This document shows positions 5,460 to 60,580 of a DNA stretch of 64,000 nt, in pieces. This DNA comes from Prorocentrum cordatum (taxonomy: Eukaryota). Positions within the stretch are counted from its first letter, which is position 1. The number at the start of each line of letters is the position of its first letter. The stretch spans positions 1-64,000 of the forward strand of contig CAUYUJ010000279.1 in NCBI GenBank assembly GCA_963575745.1, given 5' to 3'. The position numbers and the translations under genes are program-made. Under the pieces are notes generated by a model. The model was not told the DNA's origin. It ran no database searches and was given only the letters and a program-made list of their open reading frames with translations.

Positions 5460-7470
5460 TTGGGGTGTCCTGTCAGACCGTCGGGCTTCCTCCGGCCACC
5501 TCTGGCTTCCTGCGGTGTACCGGGCCATTCTCGACTCGTCTGGCAATGCGTGCGCGGCATTCAACACGCGCTCGCCAGTTCCCGTCGGCAACCGCCATCG
5601 CGGCCGCATCAGCTGTACCAAACCGGCTGGCCGGTGTGACTTCGGCCCCCAGTTGTGCCAGCTTTGCTTCTTATGTTGTGGGAGGGCGGGTGGGACTGGG
5701 CATGCCATGCTTGACTCGCTCGAGCTGGCTAGCTTGACTCCTACTCCTTACTCCTATCCTTATTCCTTATTAGAATATACTCCTACTCCCCCCTCAGGCC
5801 GGCCATTAGGGGCCGCATCCGGGTGGTCCCATCCTAACCTGTAAAAAACAATACAAAATCAACATTTTTCTTATTTTTTCCTCTCGACATGGACGTCCTG
5901 TCGTCCACGGCGATAATCCATTGCAAAAAATACCAACAAAGAGCACACGCGCGCGTTCATGTCAGAATCCTACCGAACACCTGTGTTTGCAAGCATTTCA
6001 ACATAAAAACATAAAAAACCCAATGCTTTTTCACAAAAATTCTACAAATTTCCTGCCCGGGCTCTCTTGCTGAAATCATAGGAGAACCATAGGAATCTTA
6101 AGAATTCGGTCAAATCCAGCGATTTCACGTCATCGCGCGGTGCACTCGCGATGCTCTGTCATGCACCCAGGCCGCGAATCCTGTGCAAAAAATACAACAA
6201 AGAGCACACTCGCGCGTTCATGTCAGAATCCTACCGAACACCGTGTGTTTGCAAGCATTTCAACATAAAAACATCAAAAACCCAATGCTTTTTCACAAAA
6301 ATGCTTTGGGGTGTCCTGTCAGACCGTCGGGCTTCCTCCGGCCACCTCTGGCTTCCTGCGGTGTACCGGGCCATTCTCGACTCGTCTGGCAATGCGTGCG
6401 CGGCATTCAACACGCGCTCGCCAGTTCCCGTCGGCAACCGCCATCGCGGCCGCATCAGCTGTACCAAACCGGCTGGCCGGTGTGACTTCGGCCCCCAGTT
6501 GTGCCAGCTTTGCTTCTTATGTTGTGGGAGGGCGGGTGGGACTGGGCATGCCATGCTTGACTCGCTCGAGCTGGCTAGCTTGACTCCTACTCCTACTCCT
6601 ACTCTATCCTTATTCCTTATTAGAATATACTCCTACTCCCCCCTCAGGCCGGCAGATAGGGGCCGCATCCGGGTGGTCCCATCCTAACCTGTAAAAAAAC
6701 AATACAAAATCAACATTTTTCTTATTTTTTCCTCTCGACATGGACGTCCTGTCGTCCACGGCGATAATCCATTGCAAAACATACCACAAAGAGCACACGC
6801 GCGCGTTCATGTCAGAATCCTACCGAACACCGCGTGTTTGCAAGCATTTCAACATAAAAACATCAAAAACCCAATGCTTTTTCACAAAAAAATGTACAAA
6901 TTTCCCGCCCGGGCTCTCTTGCTGAAATCATAGGAAAACCATAGGAATCTTAAGAATTCTGTCAAATCCAGCGATTTCACGTCATCGCGCGGTGCACTCG
7001 CGATGCTCTGTCATGCACCCAGGCCGCGAATCCTGTGCAAAAAATACCACAAAGAGCACACTCGCGCGTTCATGTCAGAATCCTACCGAACACCGTGTGT
7101 TTGCAAGCATTTCAACATAAAAACATCAAAAACCCAATGCTTTTTCACAAAAATGCTTTGGGGTGTCCTGTCAGACCGTCGGGCTTCCTCCGGCCACCTC
7201 TGGCTTCCTGCGGTGTACCGGGCCATTCTCGACTCGTCTGGCAATGCGTGCGCGGCATTCAACACGCGCTCGCCAGTTCCCGTCGGCAACCGCCATCGCG
7301 GCCGCATCAGCTGTACCAAACCGGCTGGCCGGTGTGACTTCGGCCCCCAGTTGTGCCAGCTTTGCTTCTTATGTTGTGGGAGGGCGGGTGGGACTGGGCA
7401 TGCCATGCTTGACTCGCTCGAGCTGGCTAGCTTGACCCTTACTCCTACTCCTACTCCTACTCCCACTCCT
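5460..7470. repeat. Tandem array II of the same ~845-bp unit (partial unit plus 2 units)
   Basis: Unit starts at 5757 and 6608. Sequence matches array I. Confidence 0.95.
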
Positions 7471-8149
7471 TCCTCCTTTCTCCTCCCTCCTTCCTCCTTC
7501 CTTTCTCCGACCTTCCCCCCTCCCCCCTCCCTCCTTGGATTTCTCCCCCTGGCGGTCCTCGTCGGAGCACACCAGCGCGTAGAGCGTCCGCCTGCCGTGC
7601 AGCCGCGCCCCCGGCGGGGCGATGCGCACGGGGGTGACCCTGTAGTAGCCGAGGCGGTCGTCCCCGACGCGCTCGGGCGGCAGGTCCTGCGGTGCCACGG
7701 GCGGGCGGCCTGCCCCTCGTCGTGCCCTGCTCGACGTGCTCCCCCCTCCTCCTCGGAGGACGAGGAAGAGGACGAGGAGGACGAGGAGGACGAGGAGGAG
7801 GAGGACGAGGAAGGAGGACGAGGGAGAAACACGAGGACGAGAAGGAGGAGGGGGACAAGGAGGAGGACGAGGAGGAAGAGGAGCACGAGGAGGAGGGCGA
7901 CGGCAAGGACGAGGGCGAGGACTGAGTCCTCGCCCTCGTCCTCGCCCTCGTCTTCCCCATCGTGTTCTACCTCGTGCTCCTCTACCCGGCGCGCCAGCTC
8001 CTCCGCGCGCTCCCGCTCCGCCTCGGCCTGCTCTCCCCTCCCCTGTCTCCCCCCACCCTGCGGGGCCCCCCATGGGCCCCTCTCGCGCCTTGCTCCTCAT
8101 GCGCTTCGCCCGCTCGTTCCCCCCATTGTGTTTCCTGCAAGACGCGTTG

Positions 8150-13810: not shown

Positions 13811-15748
13811 GCCTCTCTATCTTTCCACAAGTGCCCGAAGGTATGCGGAGGCAGGGCCAAGAGTTGAGGTCAAGCAAACCGAACCATCAAATATTGTACA
13901 TACACAGACGCAAACATGTTCATTATGCATATTGCTGCTTAGCTCTCTGTCTCTCTTTTGTTATTCTCTCTCTCTCTCTCTATGTCTCTCGGTGTTGTGT
14001 GTTTGTCCTCTCTCTCTCTCTCTTCCTCCCTCCCTCCCTCCATCCCTCTCTCTCTCTCTTTCTTTCGCTCTCTCTTTTTCCTTCTCACCTTCTCCCATCC
14101 CAGAATACGCATCAATTCAAACATCAGCATTCGCTGCCGTGCCGCTGTGCACACCGCCGTAAAATTGACAGGCGACCTCCACCCACGCATCTAGCAGTAA
14201 CCAGCTTCGAGGAAAAGGCGCACGGCCCTCCAGCAAAAGCAAGATCTGGGAAAGGACCGCCCTGCATGTGCGCATCTGCTATGACACTCAAGCCCAGGAA
14301 CGATCCTCCATCCCCGAACCTGCTGTCGCTGCTGCATCCCGTGTGCACCACAGCGCTACGCACGGAGGCTTCAAGCACGAACCAGGATTTGAAAAAAAAG
14401 GTTGCCTGCACCAGTGTACACCCCATCCTGCATGTTGATAGCAATTGAAGCTAAGAAACTGGACGTCACTCGAAGCGCGTTATTCAACTTACACAGTGAT
14501 GCAGATCCAGATCTACGAAATTCCGGCGAACATATGCAGCGCAGAGTAAACACCCAGGGTTCAGCCCAGATTCCAAATTTTATTTAACGAAATCTGGAGT
14601 CCATGAAAGTTGCTGCTTTTCCTTGGATTCGTGATGGGTGCAAATGTCGGAGCCGTAGTATTGAATGGCTGTAGCACGCGGTGAAATCCAAGGCGATGGC
14701 AGTATGTTGGGGAAGGGAGCCGCCCTCGCTTGCGTGAAGCTGCTGGGTACTGCAGCCCTTGATATTAAGAGCAGACCGTTCGCGAAATAATGGGAGCGAT
14801 AGATTCAGGAGAGCCCATAATCGAATCGATAAGTCGGATCGGCGATCGACATGGATTCGACCAGCGGGAATGGGAAGCCAAGTCGGGAGGAGTCGAATCG
14901 ACGGAAGTCGGCAGGCTAGTAAAGCCTCCATTGACATCGGATTCCGCGACAAACTTCGAAGACGAACGCATCGAAATCGAACCGCGCCGGATCGGAGGAG
15001 TCGAGATGACCGCTGCAAACTGGGGAAATAAAAAAGGACGCGCGCACCTCTCGCGCCTTTTGGGCCCCCCAGGGGGCCTTTTAGTTCGTCGCCCCACGCA
15101 TCGCACCTCCATTACTCAACGCCCGAGCAGAAGGCCTCGGGTGGGGCTCTTCGGCGAGAGCTCCATGTTTAGCACACCCCGGCCCCCCGTCCGCGCAACC
15201 TTTGGCAGCATTTGCGCCGCTTGCGCGCTGCGCAAGGGAAGGAGCCTTGAAACAACGCCGCGCTCCATCCGAGCGCCCACTGGAACACCCCATCGTTCTG
15301 ATCAGAAGCGTTGGAGAAACATCCAACACAACGCTTGCAGGCGAATCGATGGAACTGCCCCGCCGACCCGCCCGGCGATGCGACGAGGATGAAGTGCGCC
15401 AAGGACATGAGATGAAATGGGAGCAAGATGAGAATGAAGAGTTTGTTTGTTTTTGTTTCTCACCGCAGCGCGAACGCTCAGCCACCGTCGAACTTCACGT
15501 CAGCGGGTCAGGCATGCATGCAGAAAAGCAAAGACAAGCGAAGAAGAGCGGCAGAGGGCACTCCGCATTAAGAGTTCGTTGTCCCTGGTGGCGCGTGCAC
15601 CCATCGGACCACCTCGATTCGGGCGAATCGCCCTCGAGCTCGAGCCCGAACCAACATCACTCCCCACTGGGCGACAGGCCCAACCCGATCACAGCAGCAA
15701 GGTGGAAGCACAAACAGGGGACACGACCCACAACAACCAGGGCACTAC

Positions 15749-15779
<31 letters not shown>

Positions 15780-17364
15780 AAAAAAGAGAGAGAGAGAGAG
15801 AGAGAGGCATGGGCACCCAGATGCCTCGAACAACGTCGGGAACCTGGCGCGGGGAGACCAGGCGACAGCAAACAAATGCCGCAGGGCGCCGCAGGGGCCT
15901 CGAACTTCGTCGGGAGCCTGGCGCGGGAAGGGAAAGCCCAGAGGTCCTCGGGAGCTGAGCGCTCTAGGCACCACATGCCGCTTGCAAGCATGTGTGCTGA
16001 TTACTAGCTGCGCGGGGCAGATGGCCAGCCAAAAGCCACGCTCTACTCCCCCTACGGAGGGACCGACCGCTGACGTAAAGACAGGAGCAAGTGGAGGAGG
16101 AGGAGGAGGAGGAGGAGGAGGAGGAGGAGGAGGAGGAGGAGGAAGAGGAGGAGCAGGAGGAAGAGGAGAAGGATGGGGGATGAGGAGGGTAGGGGAAAAG
16201 GGGCTGAGGGGGCGAGGGGGGGGAGGGATAAAGGAGGAGAGGGAGCTGAGGGGAAGGATAGCAGTGCAGGGGAAGGGAGGAACGGGCTGAGGAGGAGGGG
16301 GAGGAGGAGGAGGGAGGAGGAGGAGGACAAAGAGGAGGAGAGGAGGAGGAGGAGGAGGAGGAGGAGGAGGAGGAGCAGGAGGAGGAGGAGGGACAAACAG
16401 GAGGAGGACGAGAGAGAGGAACGAGGGCGGAGGAGACCCCCCCCCGCTAGTCCGCGCGGCGGCGGCCCCGGCCGGCGCCGCGCCGCCCAGGCCCGCCCAG
16501 CGCGCCCCGCGCAGCCCCGCTGCCCGGCCGCCGGGGGCGGCCGCCTGCGCCGAGGCCCGCCCGCGGCCCTGCCGCGGGCGCGGCGGGCGCGGGCGCGCCC
16601 GCGGGGGCCGCGGGCCCGCGCGGCCGCCGGCGCGCATGGCGGCCGCGGCCCGGCCCAGGGCCCGGCCGGCCGTGGCCCGCGGGCGGCTCCAGGCCCCGCG
16701 CGCGGGCGGGGGCCGCGGGCGCGGCGGCCGGGCCGCGGGGCGGCTGCCGCGGCGCGGGCGGCACGCGGAGGGGTGGGGGCAGGGGGCGAGGGGGGAAGGG
16801 ACGGGGGCTCCCCCCCCCTCCCTTCCTCCCCCCTCCTCCTGACCTCCTCCGACCTCCTGACCTCCCTTCTCCCCCCTCCTCCTGACCTCCTGTCCTCCTG
16901 ACCTCCCTTCCTCCCCCCTTCCTACCCCTCCCTTCCTCCCCCCTCCTCCACCCTCCTTCGTCCACTCCTCCTGAACTCCGAGGTCAAGAGGAGGTCTGGG
17001 GTCTGGGGGGAAGGGGCGATGATGCAGGGCGGAGGCGGGGGAGGAAAGGGAGGAGAACGGGGAGGGGGACGGAAGCGGGGAAGGGGCTGACAGACAGGCG
17101 GCGGCGACACTGACGATCTCGACAGCGACAACGCCGTCCATGGCCTTGGCGGCCGCTACGGCGGCAACAGGGAAACAAACGGCAACGACGATGGTTATGA
17201 AGACGACGCCGGCGCCGACTGGTACCAAAGCACCGTAGACGACGACGAAAGGCCATATGGATGATGATCGAGGCGAACACACATATACACAAAGGCGCAG
17301 GGAGAGAAAGAGAGAATTACAAATAAAGAAAACAGAGAAATGCATAGAGAGAGAGAGACAGAGA

Positions 17365-17437
17365 TCGACAGGCAGACAGACAGACGGACAGACACAGACA
17401 GACAGACGGACGGACAGACAGACAGACAGACAGACAC

Positions 17438-17479
<42 letters not shown>

Positions 17480-17620
17480 TGACAGACAGACAGACAGGCA
17501 GCAGGAACACATAAACAGACAGACAGACAGACAGACTGACAGACAGACAGACAGGCAGCAGGAACACATAAACAGACAGCTGGACCGACAGACAGACGCA
17601 CACACAGGCAGACACACACT
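17365..17620. repeat. (GACA)n microsatellite
   Basis: Directly visible. Confidence 0.95.
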
Positions 17621-17940
17621 CCCTGGGCAAATCGGTGGGTTGAATACCTACACAAGACAAACAGCAAGCTCTTATCAGGTGAGGCTGGAAGCTGTGGCCA
17701 TTCAAATTGCCAGAAACACGCAACCTGGCATTAACCGTGCGGCAAACGCACGGACATATATGAATACAAACAGACTGAGACTGACAAAGCGAGGAAGAGG
17801 GATAGAGAGATCTACATGTATATATACGTATATATGTATGAGTCTTTAGATGTATATGTATATATATACATCTAGAGAGAGAGAGAGAAGAAAGAGAGAA
17901 AGAGAGAGAGAGAGAGAGAAAAAAAAAAAAAAAAAAACGC

Positions 17941-17981
<41 letters not shown>

Positions 17982-19231
17982 AGAGGGAGAGAGAGAGACA
18001 GAGACAGAAGACAACCCCGCGATGAACTGGGACACTCCATCTGCTGATCGGTCATACTGTCCCCCCTCCTCTTCCTTTTCCTTACCCCTCTCTTCCCCCT
18101 CCTCGCTTTCTTCTTCTTCTTCCTCCTCCTCCTCATCCCCGATCATCAGCTGGTCGGTTAGATTGCCCCCCCCATCCTTATCCATTCTTACCCCTCCCTT
18201 AGCCTCCTCCTCGCGTACCTCCTCCTCCTGCTCCTCACTCCCTGGTCATCCTCCGTCTCCTCCCGGAGCACGCCGTCATGGCCCTGACTGGCGTGCCCCT
18301 CTGCGGCTGCTTCCCAAGAACATGAGACCTACACCAGCCAAAACACACAGAACATCCAAGGATACCCTCCAGGGTGCACAAGAGCATCCGACAAACACGA
18401 AAATCACTAGGGTACCCTCCCAGAACCGACCTGGATCGTATACCGCGGTCTGACTCTAGTCGTTCAGTTACCTAACGGTATCATAATATTCCTCGTCGCC
18501 CCGCAGGGCTCCGCAGCGAGTCCAGCTCCGGCGCGCAGTCGCGCGGCGGCGTTCGCGCACAGCTGTCGCGCGCGCATCGCGCCCGCGCGCGGCGGCAGCG
18601 TTCGCGCGCCGACGCACGGCGTCCACCCAGAGAGAGGGGAGCCCTCCTCCTCCTCCTCCTCCTCCTCCTCCTCCTCCTCCTCCTCCTCCTCCTCCTCTGT
18701 CCTCCTCCTCCTCCTCTGTCCTCTGTTCTCCTCCTCCTCCTCCTCCTCCTCCTCCTCCTCCTCCTCCTCCTCCTCTGAGGGTGGCAGGCTGAAGGAAGAG
18801 ATCTGGCAGAGCGGCCGCGCCGCTCGTCACAGGGCAGCTCGCAGATCGCGAGAGCTCGCTCGGCAGCTGTGAAGAGTTCGGCGCGAGGACCGTGAGCGGC
18901 TGGGGCTGCTCGGCACTCCCTATGTTTCTGTGGCTGCCACGGCAATGGACACCCTAACAGTCCTATCCTTGAATTTTACAATGTGTGTCAACTACCGGAA
19001 CAATGTGCTAAACATGCTTTAAGAATGTTTGTTTTCTATACTTATGTGTTTCAAACATGTTTAACACATGTTTTAGACACCTGGAAATGATTTGGCAGCA
19101 TGCTTCCTCTCCATTGATCGTCCTCCACAACTATAGTATTGGCCTCGCCGGGGCTGAGGTGGCCAGGGCCATAGCGACTGGCCTGGCTTCGTGCCGGCCG
19201 GCCGCATCTTCGTTGCGAAGCTCCTCATCTT

Positions 19232-25813: not shown

Positions 25814-25991
25814 CCAGGTGCTGCTGCGTTGTGAACACATCACGGCGGAAGCTTTTTCGCTACGTTCGGCGGCCCTTGCCGGGCCCCGGGAGCGTCCAAA
25901 AACGATTCCGCATGAAAACCTGGTCCAGGGGAAGGGGTCCAGGCATCTGGGGGTGGACGTTGTGAGAAAATCACGACGTCGGGGGTCTGGG
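25814..25991 (-). mobile_element. CCCAG-family MITE copy, diverged
   Basis: Family core ...AAAACGATTCCGCATGAAAACCTGGTCCAGGGGAAGGGGTCCA... ending TCTGGG. Confidence 0.65.
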
Positions 25992-26156: not shown

Positions 26157-26341
26157 CCCAGACATCCAGCTGCTCCAGCTTTTTTGATGCGTGGGCCCCG
26201 GAGGTCTGGACCACTTCCCCAGGGCCGGCTGTTCGTCCTGACTCGATTTGGGGCCGGTCCCGCGGCCCGGCGAGGGCCTCCAGAGGCCGAAAACAGCCAA
26301 AGACCGCCCGCTCCAGTTTTTTGGAGCGTCGGATCTCTGGG
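26157..26341 (+). mobile_element. CCCAG-family MITE (185 bp)
   Basis: CCCAGA...TCTGGG termini flanked by CTC/CTC. Confidence 0.8.
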
Positions 26342-27332: not shown

Positions 27333-27515
27333 CCCAGACATCCGACGTCTCGATTTTTTCGAGACACGGGCCCCCAACCTCCCGACCACTTCCCCGGGAC
27401 CGGTTTTTCATCCCGAGTCGTTTTTTGACGGTCCCGAGGCCCGGCGAGGGCCTCCAGAGGCCGAAAACGATGAAAAACTGTTGTCTCGATTTTTTCGAGA
27501 CGCCCGAGGTCTGGG
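27333..27515 (+). mobile_element. CCCAG-family MITE (183 bp), nearly identical to 31487-31669
   Basis: CCCAGAC...GTCTGGG termini. Internal GTCTCGATTTTTTCGAGAC hairpin occurs twice. Confidence 0.85.
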
Positions 27516-31486: not shown

Positions 31487-31669
31487 CCCAGACATCCGAC
31501 GTCTCGATTTTTTCGAGACACGGGCCCCCAACCTCCCGACCACTTCCCCGGGACCGGTTTTTCATCCCGAGTCGTTGTTTGACGGTCCCGAGGCCCGGCG
31601 AGGGCCTCCAGAGGCCGAAAACGACGAAAAACCCTTGTCTCGATTTTTTCGAGACGCCCGAGGTCTGGG
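31487..31669 (+). mobile_element. CCCAG-family MITE (183 bp)
   Basis: CTC|CCCAGA...TCTGGG|CTC. Confidence 0.85.
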
Positions 31670-34061: not shown

Positions 34062-34416
34062 CCCAGGCATCCGGCTGCTCACTGTTTCCGATGCGTGGGC
34101 CCCCGAGTAGGGCGACGAAATCTATACATATCCACTGCTCCCTGGCCAGGCCCATCCTGAACCCAGCAGCGGTGTATACGCCACGACCTCCTGGCTTGGC
34201 CAGGAGGGCGTGTACACAGCTCCTGGGTTCAGGATGGGCCTGGCCAGGGAGCAGCGGATATGTATAGATTCCGCTGCCCGACCGAGGTCTGGCCCTCCTG
34301 CCCCCAGGGGCCGGCCAGTCGTCCAGAACCGTCCTGTGGACGGCCCCGAGGCCCCGCGAGGGCTCCCAGAGGCCGACCTGCCCGCTCCCAGTTGTCTGGA
34401 GCGTCGGATCGCTGGG
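34062..34416 (+). mobile_element. CCCAG-family MITE interrupted by a nested foldback element
   Basis: Homologous to 26157-26341 once 34108-34286 is removed (~176 bp remain). Confidence 0.75.
34108..34281. mobile_element. 174-bp foldback MITE with ~70-bp TIRs and 5-bp TSD CCGAG
   Basis: CCGAG at 34103-34107 and 34282-34286. Arms TCTATACATATCC...GGCCAGGCCCATCCTGAACCCAG and its reverse complement. Confidence 0.85.
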
Positions 34417-37431: not shown

Positions 37432-37990
37432 GATCATCATCATCAGCAGCATCATCACCAGCATCAGCATCATCACACCATCATCAGCATCATCATCAGC
37501 ATCATGACCATGATCATCAGCATCAACATCATTATACTAATCAGCATCATCAGCATCATCATTATCATCGTCGTCATAAATAGCAGCAGCTGCACCTGCA
37601 TCATAAGCATCATCAGCATCATCGTCATCGTCGTCATCAGAACCAACGACACCACCACCACCCTCATCATCACCATCATCAAACTCATCCTCATCACCTC
37701 CAAGACTACCACTACCACCACCACCATCATCATCACCATCATCAGCATCATCATCATCATCATTCACAGTATCAACATCACGCCATCATCATCATCATCA
37801 TCATCATCAGCATCATCACCATCGTAACCTTCATCGTCATCGTCATCGGCATCGTCATCGTCATCACCATCAGCAGCAGCAACAACATCATCGCAAGGGA
37901 CATCACAATCATGATCGCCACCGCCATCGTCATCATCACCATCACCATCAACGTCACCGTCGTCGACGTCACCGTCGTCGTTGTCATCAT
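37228..37990. repeat. Degenerate (CAT)n/(CGT)n microsatellite
   Basis: Directly visible. Confidence 0.95.
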
Positions 37991-38628
37991 AACAGGCCGC
38001 CACCCGTGCCACGACCCGTGGTTCGAGCGCGCGCCACGACGCCGCCGGTGGTGTGGGCGAAGCGGCGAGGACAGCAAGCGACCACAATCAGATCGAGGAC
38101 ACGCCCTGGCGGACCACATCGAGGGCACACCCCGGGGGGATGTCCTGCGCATGCCGCAGGCCGTCAGTACACCGAAGCCGGCTTCGTGCCGGTCGCGGTC
38201 GACGTGGCGCCACAGTGCGGCCAACTCTACCACAACCGCAACCAACGTGTCCGTGTCGTTGTCGGCGGGCTCTCCTCCTCCTCCTCCTCCTCCGAGGCTC
38301 CCTCCCGGCAAAAATCCTTTTCGTCAACAGCTACAGCTGCGGCCCTCCGCTGTGCCGGGCCGCCCGCGAGCGCCGGCCCCTGCGAGGCGGGGGCAGATGC
38401 ACACGGCGAGGGCACTGGACAAGGAATTATTTTCTATTAGGCAGCACAGAGGACCACTTCGTGACAGATTCACCTGTTCGTAATAAGTACGTATACTACA
38501 CTCGAGAGCTCGTAAGGAGCCATGGGATGAGGAATCCCGGGTCTGTGAACTGGTGGAACTCCCAGCGTGGATCGGCCATTGCTGCCACCGCCGCCCTCAC
38601 CAGAGAAGGGACCCTGCAAGGCCTGAAG

Positions 38629-39305: not shown

Positions 39306-40595
39306 GGCTACGGACCAGCCGCCGCCTCGGAGTCTGCCGCCGCCGCCCCGGCTCCCGCCACGGCGGCGGCGCACGGCGGCTCTCGCGAGCCGCGGGCCGC
39401 CCTCTCGGAGGCTCCGCGCCAGCGCTTCCCTCGCCCTCGGCCTCGCCGCCTCGCCCGCGGTGCCCGGGCCGCCGCGCCGCGGGGCCGGGCGCCAACGCGC
39501 CGCAGGCCGCTCGAAGCCCCCCGACGGAGCCGCCGTGCAGCGCCGGCGGCGACGGCGGCCGCGGCGGCCCGGCAGGCCGCGGGCGTCGCCGCCTCCGCGC
39601 TGCTGGCCGCCCACCGGCTGGGCCGAGGCGCCAACGCGCCGCACAGATGGACCGACGACCGGGCCACGGGGCGTCCAGGAGGGCGGGGGCGCCCAGGAGA
39701 GAAGAACGAGAGAGAGGACAAATCATGTAAGAGGGACGGCAGAATGTAAGAGAACGACGGGTAGCTCTTTTTCTGTGGATGGAACGATGAAATGATCGCG
39801 CTAGGGATGAGGGACAGCCCAGGGTGTGAGATGGAACGATCGAGCGATCGTGGCCCAGGAAGGACAGCGCATAATGCAAAATGGCGAAGGATAACATAAT
39901 GCGTGGGGGACGATTAACAACACGAGTTCCGAATATTCGGTTTCCGCTTCGCTTCGGTTCCGTGTGGCCCGTCGGCCGGTCAGGCGCGCGCCCGAGGAGG
40001 TCGGGAGGGAACGATTAATAACTAGTTTCCTGGAGGCCCGTTTTTCTACCTATCATCCTGAGCGCCGCCGCGCGAACACGACCCATGGCAATTTCTTAAT
40101 CATCATCCTGCATTCGAGGGGCCAAGAACGCCTCTACTCCTCTGGCCTTGCGCCGGCTGTGAAAACACTGCGTCAACCTTCACTCCAGCGTTTGTGCTGT
40201 CCGCCTCGCGCTCTCGAAGTCCCAGCCCTATGCCAAGAAGGGGGCGCGCAAGTCATGGCCTGCGGCACGTGCGCGGCCCAGGGCGGGGGGCCGGGGACGC
40301 GTTGAAGTAAGAAGCGGCGCCGCGCAATCGGAGAAGACGCCATGGCCCCGGCCATGAGACCTTCTCCCTGATCATCACCCCGCTCGTGGCCGCCCCGAGC
40401 GTGGGCGGGCACCAACGCGTTCGGACAGCCGGCGGTCCGCGCCGTAACGAAGGGCACACAGATGCGACCAGGGGAGGAAGAGGGCAGCTGCGGAGGAGCC
40501 ACGCGGGAGGAGGCCTCAGGTGTAGAGAGAATATTCGCCAAGAGGAGTGCGCAGGCGGCCTCAGGCGCAGGAAACGGGCGCACTAGAAGGTGGTA

Positions 40596-40781
40596 CCCAG
40601 ACCCCCTCGCGCTGTGAAGAAATCGCGACGGGAAATCGTCCCTGCTTTCGGCATCCGGGGCCCTTCCCGGGCCCCGGGGCCGTCAAAAAACGACTCGGGA
40701 CGAAAAGCCGGTCTCGGGGAAGGGGTCCATACCACTGGGGGTCGACGCTGCGACGAAACAGCACGACGTCGGGGGCCTGGG
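40596..40781 (-). mobile_element. CCCAG-family MITE (186 bp)
   Basis: TA|CCCAG...CTGGG|TA, with the family core. Confidence 0.8.
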
Positions 40782-54433: not shown

Positions 54434-56588
54434 GGCACGGCGCACGCGCAAGCGAGGTCAGGGTGTCATCGCCAGGCCGAAGCCTCCCCTCGGAGATTTT
54501 TGGGTGCCTCGCCTCGGTGTCTCCGTCGGCGCGCAGCGCGGCACGGCGCACGCGCAAGCGAGGCCAGGGTGGCATCGCCAGGCCGAAGCCTCCCCTCGGA
54601 GATTTTTGGGTGCCTCGCCTCGGTGTCTCCGTCGGCGCGCAGCGCGGCACGGCGCACGCGCAAGCGAGGTCAGGGTGGCATCGCTAGGCCGAAGCCTCCC
54701 CTCGGAGATTTTTGGGTGTATGTCATCGGTGTCTCCGTCCGGCCGCGCAGAGTGTGGCGCGGGGGCACGGCCGCACAGCGCAAGCTAGGTCAGGGTGGCA
54801 TGCCAAGGCCGAAGCCTCCCCTCGGAGATTGTTGGGTGCCTCGGCCTCGGTGTCTCCCGTCGGCGCGCAGCGCGGCACGGCGCGCGCGAAAGCGAGGTCA
54901 GGGTGGCATCGCTAGGCCGAAAGGCCTCCCCTCGGAGATTCCTTGTGTGCCTCGCCTCGGTGTCTCCGTCGGCGCGCAGCGCGGCACGGCGCGCGCGCAA
55001 GCGAGGTCAGGGTGGCATCACCAGGCCGAAGCCTCCCCTCGGAGATTTTTGGGCGCCTCGCCTCGGTGTCTCCGTCGGCGCGCAGCGCGGCACGGCGCGC
55101 GCGAAAGCGAGGTCAGGGTGGCATCGCTAGGCCGAAGCCTCCCCTCGGAGATCCTTGGGCGCCTCGCCTCGGTGTCTCCGTCGGCGCGCAGCGCGGCACG
55201 GCGCACGCGCAAGCGAGGTCAGGGTGGCATCGCTAGGCCGAAGCCTCCCCTCGGAGATTTTTGGGCGCCTCGCCTCGGCGTCTCCGTCGGCGCGCAGCGC
55301 GGCACGGCGCGCGCGCAAGCGAGGTCAGGGTGGCATCGCTAGGCCGAAGCCTCCCCTCGGAGATCCTCGGGCGCCTCGCCTCGGTGTCTCCGTCGGCGCG
55401 CAGCGCGGCGCGGCGCGCGCGCAAGCGAGGTCAGGGTGGCATCGCTCGGCCGAAGCCTCCCCTCGGAGATTTTTGGGCGCCTCGCCTCGGTGTCTCCGTC
55501 GGCGCGCAGCGCGGCACGGCGCGCGCGCAAGCGAGGTCAGGGCGGCATCGCCAGGCCGAAGCCTCCCCTCGAAGATTTTTGGGTGCCTCGCCTCGGTGTC
55601 TCCGTCGGCGCGCAGCGCGGCACGGCGCGCGCGCACGCGAGGTCAGGGTGGCATCGCTAGGCCGAAGCCTCCCCTCGGAGATCCTTGGGCGCCTCGCCTC
55701 GGTGTCTCCGTCGGCGCGCAGCGCGCACGGCGCCGCGCAAGCGAGTCCTGGTGGCAATCGCCATGCCGAAGAGCCTCCCCTTCGGAGATCCTTGGTGCCT
55801 CGCCTCGGTGTCTCCGTCGGAGCGCGCGCGGACGGCGCACTGCGCAATCGGAGGTCAGGGTGGCATCAGGGTGGCATCGCCAGGCCGAAGCCTCCCCTCG
55901 GAGATCTTTGGGTGCCTCGCCTCGGTGTCTCCGTCGGCGCGCAGCGCGGCACGGCGCACGCGAAAGCGAGGTCAGGGTGGCATCGCTAGGCCGAAGCCTC
56001 CCCTCAGAGATCCTTGGGTGCCTCACCTCGGTGTCTCCGTCGGCGCGCAGCGCGGCACGGCGCACGCGCAAGCGAAGTCAGGGTGGCATCGCTAGGCCGA
56101 AGCCTCCCCTCGGAGATTTTTGGGTGCCTTGCCTCGGTGTCTCCGTCGGCGCGCAGCGCGGCACGGCGCGCGCGCAAGCGAAGTCAGGGTGGCATCGCTA
56201 GGCCGAAGCCTCCCCTCGGAGATTTTTGGGTGCCTCGCCTCGGTGTCTCCGTCGGCGCGCAGCGCGGCACGGCGCACGCGCAAGCGAGGTCAGGGTGGCA
56301 TCGCCAGGCCGAAGCCTCCCCTCGGAGATCCTTGGGTGCCTCGCCTCGGTGTCTCCGTCGGAGCGCAGCGCGGCACGGCGCACGCGCAAGCGAGGTCAGG
56401 GTGGCATCGCCAGGCCGAAGCCTCCCCTCGGAGATCCCCGGGTGCCTCGCCTCGGTGTGTCCGTCGGCGCGCAGCGCGGCACGGCGCACGCGCAAGCGAG
56501 GTCAGGGTGGCATCACCAGGCCGAAGCCTCCCCTCGGAGATCCCCGGGTGCCTCGCCTCGGTGCCTCCGTGGGCGCGCAGCGCGGCGG
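54434..56588. repeat. 106-bp GC-rich satellite, ~20 copies
   Basis: Unit GGCACGGCGCACGCGCAAGCGAGGTCAGGGTGGCATCGCTAGGCCGAAGCCTCCCCTCGGAGAT...GGCGCGCAGCGC. ORFs recur every 106 bp. Confidence 0.97.
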
Positions 56589-57549
56589 CTGGGGCGGGGG
56601 CCCAGAGGGCGGCAAACCAGGCTGGGCCCTGGGGCTTCCCGGCTCGCCGCCCCTCCGCCGGCTCCGGGAGCGCTGCCGAGGGCGGCCGCGCGGGCGGCAC
56701 GTGCACCGTCACCCTCCTGCGCTGCCCGTGCCGGGCTGACATGTACTGCCTCGGTCTAGCAGCCTTTCGTGGCCTCTGGCGGCCTTTAGCGTATCATTAG
56801 CGGCCTCTAGTGGCCTTTCGTCGCCATCGGGGAGCCTCTCGCTGCCCTCAGCGGCCCTGAGCAGCACGGAGTTTTGCCTTCGGCGGCCCTGTGGTAGCCT
56901 CTGCAGAAGCGCAGGGAAGTGCACAGTGGATTTCTTTTTCCAGTGTCTGCCTATCTCCCCCTCCTGACCAGGAGTCAGGGGACTGGCGCATCATGGTCCG
57001 GGGACTGTGCGCGGACGAGGGGGACGCCTTTAAGCAGGAGGGGGCCGTAACCTCTGGGAGAACTCACAGCTCCGGCCGTGATGCAGACGGGAACTGTGGC
57101 TTAACGCGTCGAGGCGGCGGCCAAGGCGACACACGATGCCCTGCTTGCGGATAGCGTGTCGCTCCGCTCCGCGGGGCTGGGGGCCGTTGACGCTCGGGAG
57201 CTGCAGCGTTGATACCGTGTCGCGCCGAAGCGCAGTGGGTCAGAACCGGCGGCGCGATGCGCCAAGCCAAAGCTCCCGACCGTATCCGTGCTCACCCCTT
57301 TCACTGAACCTCCTCCCCCTCCCCCTCCTCCTCCTCCTCCTCCTCCTCCTCCTCCTCCTCCTCCTCCTCCTCCTCCTCCTCCTCCTCCTCCTCCTCCTCC
57401 CCTCGTCGGCGCCCCTGGGGCCGGCAGCGGCAGCGGCCGGAGCACGAGCGAGAGAGCAGGACTCGGCACCGGAGGGAGGGGAGGGGGAGGAGGGACCAGG
57501 TAGAAGGGCGAGGACGAGGACGCGAAGAGCAAGGAGGATAACTCATGGA

Positions 57550-57703
57550 CCCAGACCCCCTCGCGTCGTGACAAAAATTCCGACGTGAGGTTTGTCGCTA
57601 TTTTCGGCCTCTGGGGGCCGTCGCTGGGCCTCGGGACTGTCATACAACGGTTCAGGAAGGATGCAACACCGGCCCCTGGGGAAGGGGTCCACACCTCAGG
57701 GGG
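57550..57703 (-). mobile_element. CCCAG-family MITE, truncated, at the point where the LINE breaks off
   Basis: CCCAGACCCCCTCGCG start is shared with the 40596 copy. The other terminus is missing. Confidence 0.7.
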
Positions 57704-58308
57704 GCGGGACGAGCCCGATGGGCCTCGGGCCTCGGACCACGCGGACCTTCATGGGCAGGTCCTGGGCCTGCACCGTGGCCGCCACAGGGAGGTGCGGTGC
57801 CGCAGCGCCCTCCTCGAACACCTGCAGCTTGCCCAACCGCGGCGCCAGGTTGGCTGCGTACAGGAAGTATTCGATGGCGGAACACACGCCGACCCGCAGC
57901 CTGCAGGTAGCCGTGTCGGGCGCCGCCCACAGCCCTCGCGCGTCGTGGACCAGCTGCATGGGGGATGTCTTCGCCGACACGTTGAAGTCGCCGCCCACGA
58001 CCCAGAGCCAGGACAGGGCAGTCCAGGAAAGGAGGGCTGGTGACGACGACGTGGGTCCGCGCCAAGACCGCTACACCGCCAGAGGCGCCGTCGCTCCCGC
58101 GGGCGCCTGCGGCGGCTGCGGCCCACGCGCCCGCGTAGCCGTGGTTCAGCATGGTGCGCTGCAAGGTGGCCAGCCTGTCGTGGCCCCTGGCGTGGTGCTC
58201 CTGGACCAGCAGCACCACGGCGTCGGAGCGCTGGCGCAACCCCTCTACACACGGCGCCAAGGAACCACCCGCCGTGACACTCAAGGCAACGATGCTGCTT
58301 TTCTCCAT
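57696..58308 (-). pseudogene. LINE ORF2 N-terminus: APE/EEP endonuclease (frameshifted, apparently internally deleted, 3'-truncated)
   Basis: VLLVQEHH, SGGVAVLAR, GGDFN, AIEYFL and APHLPV correspond to the EEP motifs QE, GVA, GDFN, IDY and SDHxPV, in the expected order. Confidence 0.85.
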
Positions 58309-58654
58309 GGCCGGGAACCACGCGCTGAGGACCGGCAGCGCCGCAAGAAGGCTGGAAGCCGCCGCGGGCCAACGCGGTGCAGCGGGCTCGCACAGCCGCA
58401 TCGTCGCCCTCGTGCTCCAGTCCGACTTTCTGCAGGTGCTGCTGGAGCTGCTCGAGGAGCTCCTGGTGGGGCTGCCACGGCCTCGCATCCTCCGCGCCAG
58501 CAGCCGCTGCTGCCGACTGCTGGGCGGCGGCGACAGCAGGCGATGGGCCGCCGCCCGCGCTGCCGTCCGCGGACCCGTGCTCCTCGCCCTCGGCCGCTGG
58601 CCCAGCACACCCGCCATCCGCTTCTGTGCCTCTGCTGGGGCAGGCTGCTCGTCG

Positions 58655-59584
58655 TCAGGGTGCTCGGCCAACTGCGCCCGCATGATGGCCCCCAGCTCCC
58701 CGACCGCGATGCCCAAGCCCGCCGATGACGTCCGACGCCATGGCCTGGCCAGCCGCGCGGGGAGAAGGCACCTGCGGGGCCTGCTGCTGGAGCGCAGCCA
58801 GCTCCGCCTGCAGCGCCGCCTGTTGCGCGAGGAGCTCGGCGCGTGCCTGCTCCGTGCGCTGCACCTCCTCCTGCGCCCTCTGGAGCGCCTCCTTGGCCTT
58901 GCGCATCTCGCCGTCCGCCCTGTGCAGCCGCTCGGCGCACCGCTTGGCCTTGTTGGCGATGGCATGCGTCCTGGCGTGGAGCGGCTTGTTGGCGAACCGA
59001 TTGGCCTTCGCCTTCTCGAGCCGGGCGCGCAACTCGTAGCGCGGCGCCTCGGCCCAGTCCGCTGCCACGTCCCTGAGCGCATGGAGGCCAGCCTCGCGCT
59101 CCTTGACATCGGCGGCCAGGGCCGCGTCGTCCGCGCCGGCGGCGGTGCCGTCGTCGACCACCATGTCCTGGGCCGCCGCGAGCTGCGGGCCCACGCCGCC
59201 AGCGCCGCTGGCGACCTTGAGCTGCTTCTTGAGGTCCTGGAGCTCCCGCTGCGCCTGCGCCAGCTGCACCGCGAGCGGAGACCCTCCAGCCCATGGCGGG
59301 GCCTTGCCGCTCGCCGCCGCAGGCTGCCGCGCCGCCTTGCCAGGCGGGGGCAGTGGCACATTCGCCCCGAAGCACGTGTGCTTGGTCAGCCTGCACGCCT
59401 GGCACTCGAGCGCCGTCCCCCAGTTGACCACCGCACGCCCACGCTTGCTGACGCAGGTCTTGCAGGTCCAGTCCTGGCGCACGGCCCCTTTGGCGCGCGG
59501 TCCCCCGCCCGCCATCTGGTGGCCCTCGGGGGGGGCCGAGACGATGTGGAATCGGGCGGCAGCTCGCCCCTGTGGATGCTGCAA
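58655..59584 (-). CDS. LINE ORF1-like protein: RanBP2-like C4 zinc finger plus coiled coil; probable frameshift near the C-terminus
   Basis: WTCKTC-x9-N-x6-CQAC, followed by helical segments such as QLAQAQRELQDLKKQLK and KAKEALQRAQEEVQRTEQARAELLAQQAALQAELAALQQQ. Lies between the SL and the APE. Confidence 0.7.
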   Translation of the reverse strand: MQHPQGRAAARFHIVSAPPEGHQMAGGGPRAKGAVRQDWTCKTCVSKRGRAVVNWGTALECQACRLTKHTCFGANVPLPPPGKAARQPAAASGKAPPWAGGSPLAVQLAQAQRELQDLKKQLKVASGAGGVGPQLAAAQDMVVDDGTAAGADDAALAADVKEREAGLHALRDVAADWAEAPRYELRARLEKAKANRFANKPLHARTHAIANKAKRCAERLHRADGEMRKAKEALQRAQEEVQRTEQARAELLAQQAALQAELAALQQQAPQVPSPRAAGQAMASDVIGGLGHRGRGAGGHHAGAVGRAP

Positions 59585-59654
59585 TGCTGCAAGAACACGG
59601 ATACGCTGGATGGGAGCCTACGCCACTGAGGCAGTGATGGAAGCGCCATTTGGC

Positions 59655-59676
59655 CTTGAGCCAAAATGGCTACGGA
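59655..59676 (-). other. Exact dinoflagellate spliced leader TCCGTAGCCATTTTGGCTCAAG in genomic DNA
   Basis: 22/22 match to DinoSL. It is followed by GCC rather than an SL-gene GT intron, so it is a retro-copied relic. Confidence 0.97.
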
Positions 59677-60370
59677 GGAGGAGGGACGAGGACGAGGAGG
59701 AAATCAGGAAGAGGAGGAGAGCGGCGACGAGGAAGACAATGATGACGAGACCCCAGCGCGCAGGAGGACGTCCGGCGCGTAGGGTGCGGGCGTGTCACGT
59801 CAGCACCAGCACGGCGGTCGCCCGCACGTCGGCGGAGGAAGCCCCGACCTGTGGGGGGGCGGGGGGGGGGCAGGTAGCGCACGGGGGGGCAAAAGGGGGG
59901 GGGGGGCTAGATGAGAGGGGGGGGGAGGGGTCGGAATGCGGAGGTGGATGGGGGAAGGGGGGGGATGGGGGGGACGGGGGGGAGGGATGGGACTGCGGGG
60001 GGGAAGGAGGGCAGCGGGGGGGGGGTGGGGGGGCGCAAACCGGAGTGCCTCCTGACGGCAGATGCCGACCAGGAGGTTCTGTGGGCCAAGGGGCGGCAAG
60101 CCAGCTGGAGCGGATTGCTGCGGCAGGCCTTGCCAAACCCCGCGACTGGCCGCAGAAGTCCAGGCGGCCGTGACCGCTCAAGGGTGCGGCACAGGCGGGG
60201 CGACGACATGCGGCAGGGCGGAGGGGGCGGGGAGGAAAAGCCAAACGAGTGGCCTCCCTTCGGGGGGGGGGGCGGCATAGTTATGGGTGGGCTCACCCGT
60301 CCTAGGGCGCTTGCCCTGTTCGACACGTCTCCCGTGCGTGTTCTGATGGGCGAAGTTGCGATGGTTTTGT

Positions 60371-60480
<110 letters not shown>

Positions 60481-60580
60481 NNNNNNNNNNNNNNNNNNNN
60501 NNNNNNNNNNNNNNNNNNNNNNNNNNNNNNNNNNNNNNNNNNNNNNNNNNNNNNNNNNNNNNNNNNNNNNNNNNNNNNNN
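60481..60580. other. Assembly gap (100 N) between (GTT)n and (CCT)n
   Basis: Run of N. Confidence 1.

What the first reader, a model, noticed from the sequence alone, without database searches (positions are those of the whole stretch)
57696..59676. LINE retrotransposon with an exact dinoflagellate spliced leader at its 5' end
Seen: a perfect 22-nt DinoSL, then ~70-140 nt of leader, then an ORF1-like protein (C4 zinc finger plus coiled coil), then APE endonuclease motifs in order, all on the minus strand. Known: DinoSL is added to mRNAs by trans-splicing, and SL relics in genomic DNA mark retrocopies. Inference: the LINE RNA was itself trans-spliced and reverse-transcribed to its very 5' end. 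Such an element may need no internal promoter: it could be cut out of read-through transcripts and reuse the terminal AG of its relic SL as the next acceptor. It is also a candidate source of the machinery behind dinoflagellate mRNA recycling. This differs from SLACS/NeSL elements, which insert into SL genes.
Basis: partly seen in the sequence, partly recalled or inferred. Interest (0 to 1): 0.85.

Follow-up and report, generated by a model that had tools for sequence, protein, structure and literature searches.

The report
Dead LINE fragment with spliced-leader relic
A broken, tail-less copy of a dinoflagellate jumping gene (a LINE) starts with the exact 22-letter tag that these algae splice onto their messenger RNAs, so it was copied back into DNA from a processed RNA; this is a tidy but expected case of a known process.

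Summary
An exact 22-nt DinoSL lies at 59676-59655 (minus strand) and is the only one in the window. A 139-nt leader follows, then an ORF1 with a C4 zinc finger and coiled coil, then endonuclease (EEP/APE) remnants.

All close relatives are predicted Prorocentrum cordatum proteins of up to 2197 aa. They continue from the same ORF1 and EEP into an RT-like, CCHC and RNase-H-like region, so the family is LINE-like.

The window copy is dead. It has at least three frameshifts and lacks 51-59 aa of the EEP. All LINE homology stops at 57702, where an unrelated ~140-bp dispersed repeat begins. There is no RT anywhere in the window.

The SL relic is best explained by reverse transcription of a trans-spliced RNA up to its 5' end, as in known dinoflagellate retrocopies. 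It does not look like an SL-gene insertion of the SLACS/NeSL kind.

No genome, paralogue DNA or RNA reads covering the junction were available.

Verdict: a new member of known kinds, of moderate interest.

The parts
59655..59676 (-). DinoSL relic, 22 of 22 nt (TCCGTAGCCATTTTGGCTCAAG)
   Evidence: unique in the window; 0 of 100 shuffles give a match.
59516..59654 (-). 139-nt leader (5' UTR) between the SL and the ORF1 ATG. Its first 10 nt (59654-59645, GCCAAATGGC) are complementary to SL positions 7-17. An upstream ATG lies at 59650.
   Evidence: The predicted hairpin covers SL nt 7-18 and leader nt 1-10. The longest exact reverse-complement match is 7 nt, reached by 0.8% of 20000 random 30-mers of the window.
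58877..59515 (-). ORF1, intact-frame part: C4 zinc finger (59467-59390) and helical/coiled-coil region
   Evidence: tblastn aligns P0011 aa 1-196 at 76.5% identity. Homologues P0001, P0003 and P0004 score E 1e-63 to 1e-98. Coiled-coil Pfam hits are weak.
58594..58719 (-). ORF1 middle piece, shifted to another frame (frameshift before and after it)
   Evidence: P0011 aa 248-289 aligns here in frame 0, whereas the flanking pieces are in frame 2.
58301..58483 (-). ORF1 C-terminal piece (the region UniRef labels SAP domain in relatives P0001 and P0003)
   Evidence: P0011 aa 340-400 aligns at 79% identity. The source names appear. Pfam gave no SAP hit at E<=0.01.
58003..58338 (-). ORF2 start and EEP/APE endonuclease N-terminal part (...VVLLVQEHH..., GGVAVLAR)
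   Evidence: Pfam Exo_endo_phos E 0.0019, below cut-off. phmmer found 62 relatives at E<=1e-3; the best are P0009, P0010 and P0011 at 5e-32 to 8e-30.
57696..58004 (-). EEP C-terminal part in a third frame (GGDFNV, IEYFL, PHLPV), following a 51-59 aa deletion. LINE homology ends at 57702 and a TGA lies at 57698-57696.
   Evidence: P0011 406-501 then 553-618; P0009 361-466 then 524-624; P0010 9-85 then 143-243. Three-frame translation.
57562..57703 (.). ~140-bp dispersed repeat that abuts the truncated LINE. It shows no similarity to any family protein.
   Evidence: Six other copies in the window. 108 contigs of run X2 cover place 57620, against 2-5 contigs at LINE-internal places (table 3). tblastn of all 66 stored proteins against 57300-57720 gave only noise.
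59684..59698 (-). Upstream half of a candidate target-site duplication (TCCTCGTCCTCGTCC); weak
   Evidence: (family D6). The motif has 26 hits at about 12 places in the window, so chance is not excluded.
57506..57520 (-). Downstream half of the candidate target-site duplication (TCCTCGTCCTCGCCC); weak

Best explanation
This is a decayed, non-autonomous 5' fragment (about 1.97 kb, 59676-57702, minus strand) of a Prorocentrum LINE-like non-LTR retroelement. ORF1 of the family has a C4 zinc finger, a coiled coil and a SAP-like region. ORF2 has EEP/APE, an RT-like region, CCHC and an RNase-H-like region.

The DNA copy was made by reverse transcription of an RNA that had received the dinoflagellate spliced leader by trans-splicing. 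Synthesis ran to the capped 5' end, so the 22-nt SL became genomic (inferred, not shown).

The copy cannot move or encode anything by itself. It has at least three frameshifts, a 51-59 aa hole in the endonuclease and no RT. It ends where an unrelated 140-bp repeat begins.

Two histories fit about equally well. In the first, a long insertion was later truncated and mutated. In the second, an RNA transcribed through an already defective copy plus its flank was trans-spliced at an AG in front of ORF1 and retrocopied in trans, like any dinoflagellate retrogene.
For: - SL exact and unique in the window.
- Same strand as ORF1, with a plausible 139-nt leader before the ATG.
- The bases after the SL are GCCAA. 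The general dinoflagellate SL-RNA antisense probe printed in PMC3101222 (passages read) implies that the conserved intron starts GTACA. No T-run follows within 28-38 nt.
- All 8 ORF1 homologues are predicted P. cordatum proteins; 5 of the 8 are longer than 500 aa and run on into the EEP region.
- The best EEP relatives are P0009 (2197 aa), P0010 and P0011 (2036 aa).
- RT evidence in relatives: RVT_1 at E 0.081 at the expected place in P0009 and RNase_H at E 0.011 in 1 of 9 members. 27 of 30 Atlas feature hits for P0008 residues 640-1060 are RVT_1 clusters, best score 0.97. UniRef names P0009 'Reverse transcriptase domain-containing protein'. RT motifs are visible in order (my reading, motif knowledge recalled).
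- Lesions and truncation mapped.
- SL relics as marks of retrocopies are established (PMC12014239, PMC5585692, PMC6050394, passages read).
Against: - No second copy could be examined, so it is not shown that the 139-nt leader belongs to the LINE family rather than to the insertion site.
- No poly(A) or recognisable LINE 3' end is present. The candidate target-site duplication is a common low-complexity motif.
- RT identity of the family is not proven. Pfam RVT_1 is below cut-off (13.1 against 29.6 bits). PDB sequence searches found nothing relevant. The AlphaFold model was unusable (pLDDT 34.9).
- 3' truncation is atypical for LINE insertions, which are usually truncated at the 5' end.
- No contig listed spans the SL/leader junction, so the junction lacks read-level confirmation.
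Confidence: 0.72

Rival explanations
1. SL-dependent LINE life cycle. The family has no promoter of its own. Its 5' end is always set by SL trans-splicing out of read-through transcripts. Full-length copies all begin with an SL, whose terminal AG is the acceptor for the next round.
For: - One SL sits exactly at the start of the leader with no stacked relic. That is what traceless reuse of the terminal AG would give.
- A pyrimidine-rich stretch lies just upstream.
- The first 10 nt of the leader pair with the SL.
- The literature already proposes that SL relics let retrogenes survive without a promoter of their own (PMC5585692 and PMC6050394, passages read).
Against: - Only one copy was seen, and it is dead and lacks RT.
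- A single SL is equally expected from a first-time trans-splicing event.
- With the upstream pyrimidine tract, the first AG met is the one inside the SL (CCGTAG). Using it would create stacked relics, and none is present.
Confidence: 0.15
2. The SL is part of an SL-RNA gene or pseudogene. Either the LINE sits next to or inside it, or the junction is a chimera made when the reverse transcriptase switched from the LINE RNA to an SL RNA, like U6/L1 chimeras (recalled).
For: - SL-gene introns in Fugacium start with GU or GC, and here the next bases are GC (PMC6616646, passages read).
- The SL plus the next 38 nt fold into two hairpins (-20.1 kcal/mol), the shape described for dinoflagellate SL RNAs (PMC3101222, passages read).
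Against: - The conserved DinoSL-RNA intron start implied by the published antisense probe (CTCAAG/GTACA, PMC3101222) is absent.
- No T-tract terminator lies 28-38 nt downstream.
- No 5S rRNA or other RNA family was found anywhere in the window (Rfam: 0 hits).
- There is a single SL and no SL-gene array.
Confidence: 0.07
3. Chance neighbours: an older SL relic of some other retrocopy, with the LINE fragment landing or being recombined next to it.
For: - The region is a patchwork of repeats, with a satellite, microsatellites and the 140-bp repeat.
- The leader could not be shown to belong to the LINE family.
Against: - Only one SL lies in 64 kb. It is on the same strand as ORF1 and 139 nt in front of a complete ORF1 start that aligns from residue 1.
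Confidence: 0.06
4. Assembly chimera at the SL junction or at 57702.
For: - A 100-N gap lies at 60481-60580.
- No contig listed spans 59640-59680.
Against: - The gap is about 800 bp away from the SL.
- Public contigs match 59411-59561 and 59721-59850 with 0 differences, and 59711-59858 with 2 differences (table 8).
Confidence: 0.03

Closest known systems
DinoSL-relic retrocopies ('recycled cDNAs', retrogenes) of dinoflagellates: Slamovits & Keeling 2008 (recalled, and as cited in the papers read); Song et al. 2017 PMC5585692; PMC12014239
   Same: A genomic DinoSL lies directly in front of a transcribed unit on the same strand. It is explained by reverse transcription of a trans-spliced RNA. 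Song et al. report the GO class 'RNA-dependent DNA replication' enriched among relic-bearing genes, so RT-encoding units with relics were already in those sets.
   Different: Here the tagged unit is itself a LINE fragment rather than a host gene. It has a full 22-nt SL and no stacked truncated relic. It is non-coding debris rather than a surviving retrogene.
SymbioLINE / LINEs of Symbiodiniaceae (de Mendoza et al. 2018, PMC5890265, passages read)
   Same: A dinoflagellate LINE with ORF1 plus an ORF2 carrying Exo_endo_phos, RT and RNase H. That paper states the elements have no poly(A) tail, and none is seen here either.
   Different: ORF1 here has a C4 finger, coiled coil and SAP-like region, not a DNMT. 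The RT of the Prorocentrum family is too divergent for the Pfam cut-off. That paper does not mention a spliced leader (0 occurrences in its main text).
SL-gene-specific elements SLACS/CZAR/CRE (trypanosomatids) and NeSL-1 (C. elegans); recalled, not read here
   Same: A non-LTR element physically joined to spliced-leader sequence.
   Different: Those elements insert inside SL RNA genes and use a restriction-like endonuclease. Here the nuclease is EEP/APE-type, the SL is complete and ends exactly at its splice point, and no SL-gene intron or array flanks it.
L1Tc/ingi of trypanosomatids with Pr77 promoter and HDV-like ribozyme (PMC1874656, PMC3185411; search listing and abstracts only)
   Same: A LINE in an organism with polycistronic transcription and universal SL trans-splicing. 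It must define its own 5' end within read-through transcripts.
   Different: L1Tc does this with an internal promoter and a self-cleaving ribozyme and gives unspliced transcripts. The copy here bears the SL itself.

Membership tests
APE-type non-LTR retrotransposon (LINE) | EEP/APE endonuclease domain at the start of ORF2 | tested here: met
   The window piece is below the Pfam cut-off (18.4 against 24.5 bits). Its close relatives pass: P0007 27.7, P0008 25.3 and P0030 24.9 bits. In the window copy the domain is broken by a 51-59 aa deletion and a frameshift.
APE-type non-LTR retrotransposon (LINE) | Reverse transcriptase downstream of the endonuclease in the same ORF | tested here: inconclusive
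   Family: RVT_1 E 0.081, below cut-off, in 1 of 9 members. 27 of 30 Atlas feature hits are RVT_1 clusters. UniRef label for P0009. Motif order by inspection. PDB searches were empty and the model failed. Window copy: RT absent.
APE-type non-LTR retrotransposon (LINE) | Multiple dispersed copies, many of them truncated | tested here: met
   8 distinct P. cordatum ORF1 homologues, each on its own contig. 62 EEP relatives at E<=1e-3, many of them short fragments. Contigs of run X2 align at about 10% divergence (table 8).
APE-type non-LTR retrotransposon (LINE) | Target-site duplication and a defined 3' end | tested here: inconclusive
   A candidate 15-nt direct repeat was found, but the motif occurs 26 times in the window. 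No poly(A) or family 3' end is present.
DinoSL-relic retrocopy | Genomic DinoSL on the sense strand at the 5' end of the unit | tested here: met
   22 of 22 nt, 139 nt upstream of the ATG.
DinoSL-relic retrocopy | Not an SL RNA gene (no conserved intron, no terminator, no array) | tested here: met
   GCCAA follows the SL instead of the GTACA implied by the published probe (PMC3101222). There is no T-run, only one SL, and Rfam gives 0 hits. Fugacium SL-gene variants with a GC donor (PMC6616646) leave some doubt.
DinoSL-relic retrocopy | A parent locus without the SL, or transcripts with SL plus relic | not testable with these tools
   No genome is held and no RNA holder is listed.
SL-gene-targeting elements (SLACS/CZAR/NeSL) | Insertion inside an SL RNA gene, with SL-gene sequence on both sides | tested here: not met
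   Upstream of the SL is CT-rich low complexity. Downstream is the leader and ORF1. No second SL piece exists in the window.
SL-gene-targeting elements (SLACS/CZAR/NeSL) | Restriction-like endonuclease C-terminal to the RT (recalled definition) | tested here: not met
   The family has an N-terminal EEP domain.

The most novel reading that the evidence does not exclude
The whole Prorocentrum LINE family may live off SL trans-splicing. It would need no promoter. Its 5' end would be cut out of read-through transcripts by the SL machinery and copied back with the SL. The SL would be regenerated tracelessly by using the relic's terminal AG. The 10-nt anti-SL sequence at the start of the leader (59654-59645) would pair with the SL RNA exon and dock it at the acceptor. 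This LINE, rather than LTR elements, would then be the engine that writes SL-tagged retrogenes into dinoflagellate genomes.
Probability: 0.12. Interest if true: 0.75.

Novelty: new member of a known kind. Interest (0 to 1): 0.35.

Why it matters
The papers read here say it is still unknown which reverse transcriptase writes SL-tagged retrogenes into dinoflagellate genomes, and they lean towards Ty1/copia (PMC6050394, passages).

A LINE family whose own RNA is seen trans-spliced and copied to the cap would be a concrete candidate. It would also offer a test: compare the target sites and end structures of SL-tagged LINE copies with those of SL-tagged retrogenes.

One dead copy shows only that such RNAs are substrates. 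That is expected if all nuclear mRNAs receive the SL.

Tried and rejected
- Whole genome: none is held.
- Paralogue DNA, using the ORF1 alignment A1:
  - Metagenome contigs: 109 pattern matches, 0 confirmed.
  - Genome contigs: 18 matches, 0 confirmed.
  - Viral contigs: 1 weak zinc-finger match (L001, 37% over 35 aa), judged irrelevant.
- Sequencing runs: 4 small-share holders (0.05-0.08) and no RNA holder listed.
- Laying those 4 runs at 80% likeness: no listed contig spans the SL junction. One X2 contig joins 59572 to 59650, skipping 77 nt of the leader with a 20-nt side that would lie on SL sequence. The tool warns that such joints are often false, so I treat it only as a lead to a second SL-bearing copy.
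- Frame-0 peptide read through the SL (59700-59389), meant to catch 5'-open ORFs of paralogues or transcripts: 87 candidates, none at E<=0.01.
- RT confirmation:
  - PDB profile search with A3: 0 hits.
  - phmmer with the P0008 RT part: 1 irrelevant hit at E 1.2.
  - AlphaFold on A4: mean pLDDT 34.9, so no fold search was run.
  - PF00078 search via handle L001: no usable reference loci.
- ORF1 in the ESM Atlas: no usable hit.
- zf-RanBP for the finger: not found at E<=1.
- The 140-bp repeat as the LINE 3' tail: no similarity to family proteins, but their 3' UTRs are unknown, so this stays open.
- Target-site duplication: the motif is too common to count.
- Earlier notes of this scan: nothing on this genome or on look-alikes.
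- Literature searches: I found no explicit description of a LINE that begins with a DinoSL. Supplements were not opened.
Full report
**What is in the sequence**

On the minus strand, 59676-59655 reads TCCGTAGCCATTTTGGCTCAAG, the complete 22-nt dinoflagellate spliced leader. Its 21-nt core occurs once in the 64-kb window even with three mismatches allowed, and in none of 100 shuffles. The 15-nt relic core with up to two mismatches is also found only here.

The SL is followed by a 139-nt leader (59654-59516) and an ATG at 59515. Upstream of the SL lies CT-rich low-complexity DNA.

**ORF1**

From 59515 the frame encodes MAGGGPRAKGAVRQDWTCKTCVSKRGRAVVNWGTALECQACRL... This contains a four-cysteine finger (59467-59390), followed by helical, coiled-coil-like sequence.

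Pfam gives only weak coiled-coil family hits (APG6_N, E 2.5e-4, below cut-off) and no zf-RanBP hit at E<=1. The finger is therefore an inspection result, and its RanBP2-like spacing is recalled knowledge.

**Relatives**

The 5.8-billion-protein search with ORF1 returned 3 near-length and 5 longer homologues (E 1e-38 to 1e-98). All are named as predicted Prorocentrum cordatum proteins. The longer ones carry the same N-terminus followed by an EEP region and a long C-terminal part.

The exhaustive HMMER search with the 112-aa EEP piece (58338-58003) gave 62 proteins at E<=1e-3. The best were P0009 (2197 aa, 5e-32), P0010 (4.5e-31) and P0011 (2036 aa, 8e-30).

Pfam Exo_endo_phos passes its cut-off in P0007, P0008 and P0030. 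In the window piece it reaches 18.4 bits against a cut-off of 24.5.

**Is the family a LINE?**

Downstream of the EEP the relatives show, in order:
- ...RLPKPSGGCR.IAL...
- ...LLDAWKFFETV...
- ...QG.LAGC.HA...
- ...ALVDDV...
- ...GII.QP.KSGYV...
- a C-x2-C...H-x4-C motif
- ...TDGS...AER...

I read these as RT motifs, a CCHC knuckle and RNase H; the motif knowledge is recalled.

Tool support is moderate:
- RVT_1 at E 0.081 (13.1 bits, cut-off 29.6) at residues 903-1003 of P0009, and RNase_H at E 0.011 in 1 of 9 members.
- 27 of 30 ESM-Atlas feature hits for P0008 residues 640-1060 are RVT_1-bearing clusters, best score 0.97.
- UniRef calls P0009 a 'Reverse transcriptase domain-containing protein'.

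On the other side, PDB sequence searches were empty. The AlphaFold model from the shallow family alignment was useless (pLDDT 34.9), so no fold search was made.

I take the family to be an APE-type non-LTR element with RNase H. This is the same domain order as the SymbioLINEs of Symbiodiniaceae (PMC5890265, passages read), but with a different ORF1.

**State of the window copy**

tblastn of eight family proteins against the window finds only this copy. Against P0011 the pieces lie as follows:

| P0011 residues | Window coordinates | Frame |
|---|---|---|
| 1-196 | 59515-58877 | 2 |
| 248-289 | 58719-58594 | 0 |
| 340-400 | 58483-58301 | 2 |
| 406-501 | 58284-57997 | 0 |
| 553-618 | 58004-57807 | 1 |

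That is four frame changes. One of them may be the natural ORF1/ORF2 boundary.

Between the two EEP pieces, 51-59 residues of every relative have no counterpart, although the pieces touch in the DNA. All homology ends at 57702 (P0009 residue 624), followed by TGA. The relatives continue for 1400-1600 more residues. No RT-like sequence exists anywhere in the window.

From about 57703 down to 57562 lies a ~140-bp repeat with six other copies in the window. Many contigs of run X2 cover it: 108 at place 57620, against 2-5 at LINE-internal places (table 3). It shows no similarity to the family proteins. Whether it is the family's 3' UTR or SINE partner, or an unrelated repeat, could not be decided.

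A 15-nt direct repeat, TCCTCGTCCTCGYCC, brackets the unit formed by the SL, the LINE fragment and the repeat (59684-59698 and 57506-57520). The motif occurs 26 times in the window, so I do not count it as a target-site duplication.

**How the SL got there**

The SL ends exactly at its splice point and is joined to GCCAAATGG. The general dinoflagellate SL-RNA antisense probe printed in PMC3101222 (TGTACCTTGAGCCAAAATG) implies a conserved intron start of GTACA, which is absent here. That paper also describes termination in T-tracts, and there is none within 28-38 nt. The window has one SL, no array and no Rfam hit.

The standard explanation therefore applies: an RNA was trans-spliced and reverse-transcribed to its 5' end (PMC12014239, PMC5585692 and PMC6050394, passages read).

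Some doubt remains. Fugacium SL genes can have GC donors (PMC6616646), and the SL plus the next 38 nt fold into two hairpins.

The element is not SLACS/NeSL-like. It has an EEP nuclease rather than a restriction-like one, and there is no SL-gene remainder.

**What cannot be said**

Neither could be had:
- No genome is held.
- ORF1-based scans of three collections found no relative apart from one irrelevant weak hit.
- Only four small-share sequencing runs were offered, with no RNA holder listed, and no listed contig spans the junction.
- A peptide read through the SL found nothing.

A single SL without stacked relics fits both first-time trans-splicing and traceless reuse of the terminal AG.

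The copy is 3'-truncated and riddled with lesions while its SL is perfect. This fits an RNA from an already defective copy plus flank being retrocopied in trans as well as it fits later decay. At the roughly 10% divergence seen for X2 contigs (table 8), a 22-mer stays intact about one time in ten (0.9^22, my arithmetic), so the perfect SL proves nothing.

**Comparison with the literature**

My five literature searches found no paper that describes a LINE beginning with a DinoSL. De Mendoza et al. do not mention the SL (0 occurrences in the main text).

Song et al. 2017 report 'RNA-dependent DNA replication' enriched among relic-bearing genes. They and Song et al. 2018 already propose that the relic supplies promoter function. 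RT-encoding units with relics, and the promoter-independence idea, are therefore implicit in print.

The trypanosomatid L1Tc solves the same 5'-end problem with a promoter plus a ribozyme (abstracts only).

**Verdict**

The copy itself is genomic debris, and the novel mechanism is untested. I rate it a new member of known kinds, interest about 0.35. The genome-wide census described under next steps would quickly raise or sink the bolder reading.

Noticed in passing
window 59645-59670 (minus): SL positions 7-18 and the first 10 nt of the leader (GCCAAATGGC) form an 11-bp hairpin with one bulge, and the splice junction sits next to the loop. The longest exact reverse-complement match is 7 nt, reached by 0.8% of random 30-mers of the window. 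It could be an inverted SL scrap or an SL-RNA docking site.
   Followed up: partly
window 57562-57703; also 25826-25953, 26196-26305, 27384-27467, 31538-31669, 34276-34376, 40595-40744: A ~140-bp hairpin-rich repeat family, partly tandem around 25.8-27.5 kb. Many contigs of run X2 cover it. Rfam finds nothing.
   Followed up: partly
window 57114-57341: A second stretch covered by many contigs of run X2 (up to 78 contigs at one place, table 3). It lies beyond a (GAG)n microsatellite at about 57300-57420.
   Followed up: no
window 54434-56586: A 106-bp satellite of 20 copies with 90% matches. It produces many spurious long ORFs on both strands.
   Followed up: no
window 59386-59650 (minus): An upstream ATG lies 5 nt after the SL, out of frame with ORF1. 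It opens an 87-aa reading frame that overlaps the ORF1 start.
   Followed up: no
window 59572/59650: One contig of run X2 joins these two places, skipping 77 nt of the leader while keeping about 20 nt that would lie on SL sequence (table 5). It may be a second SL-bearing copy with a shorter leader, but the tool warns that such joints are unreliable.
   Followed up: no
window 15660-18245 (minus) and 37584-38480 (plus): An 862-aa open frame without any Pfam hit, and a weak Anoctamin-like hit (E 7.7e-4, below cut-off). Of the 66 long ORFs scanned, 2 gave a sub-cut-off hit (this Anoctamin hit and a YxzE-like hit at 7086-8096 minus, E 7.3e-4) and the other 64 had no Pfam family.
   Followed up: no
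window 60481-60580: A 100-N assembly gap, directly preceded by a (TTG)n run at 60371-60480.
   Followed up: no
proteins P0026 and P0056: Predicted proteins that fuse a LINE-type EEP piece to host-type domains: HATPase_c in P0026 and DEAD helicase in P0056. These are probably gene models that swallowed LINE fragments.
   Followed up: no
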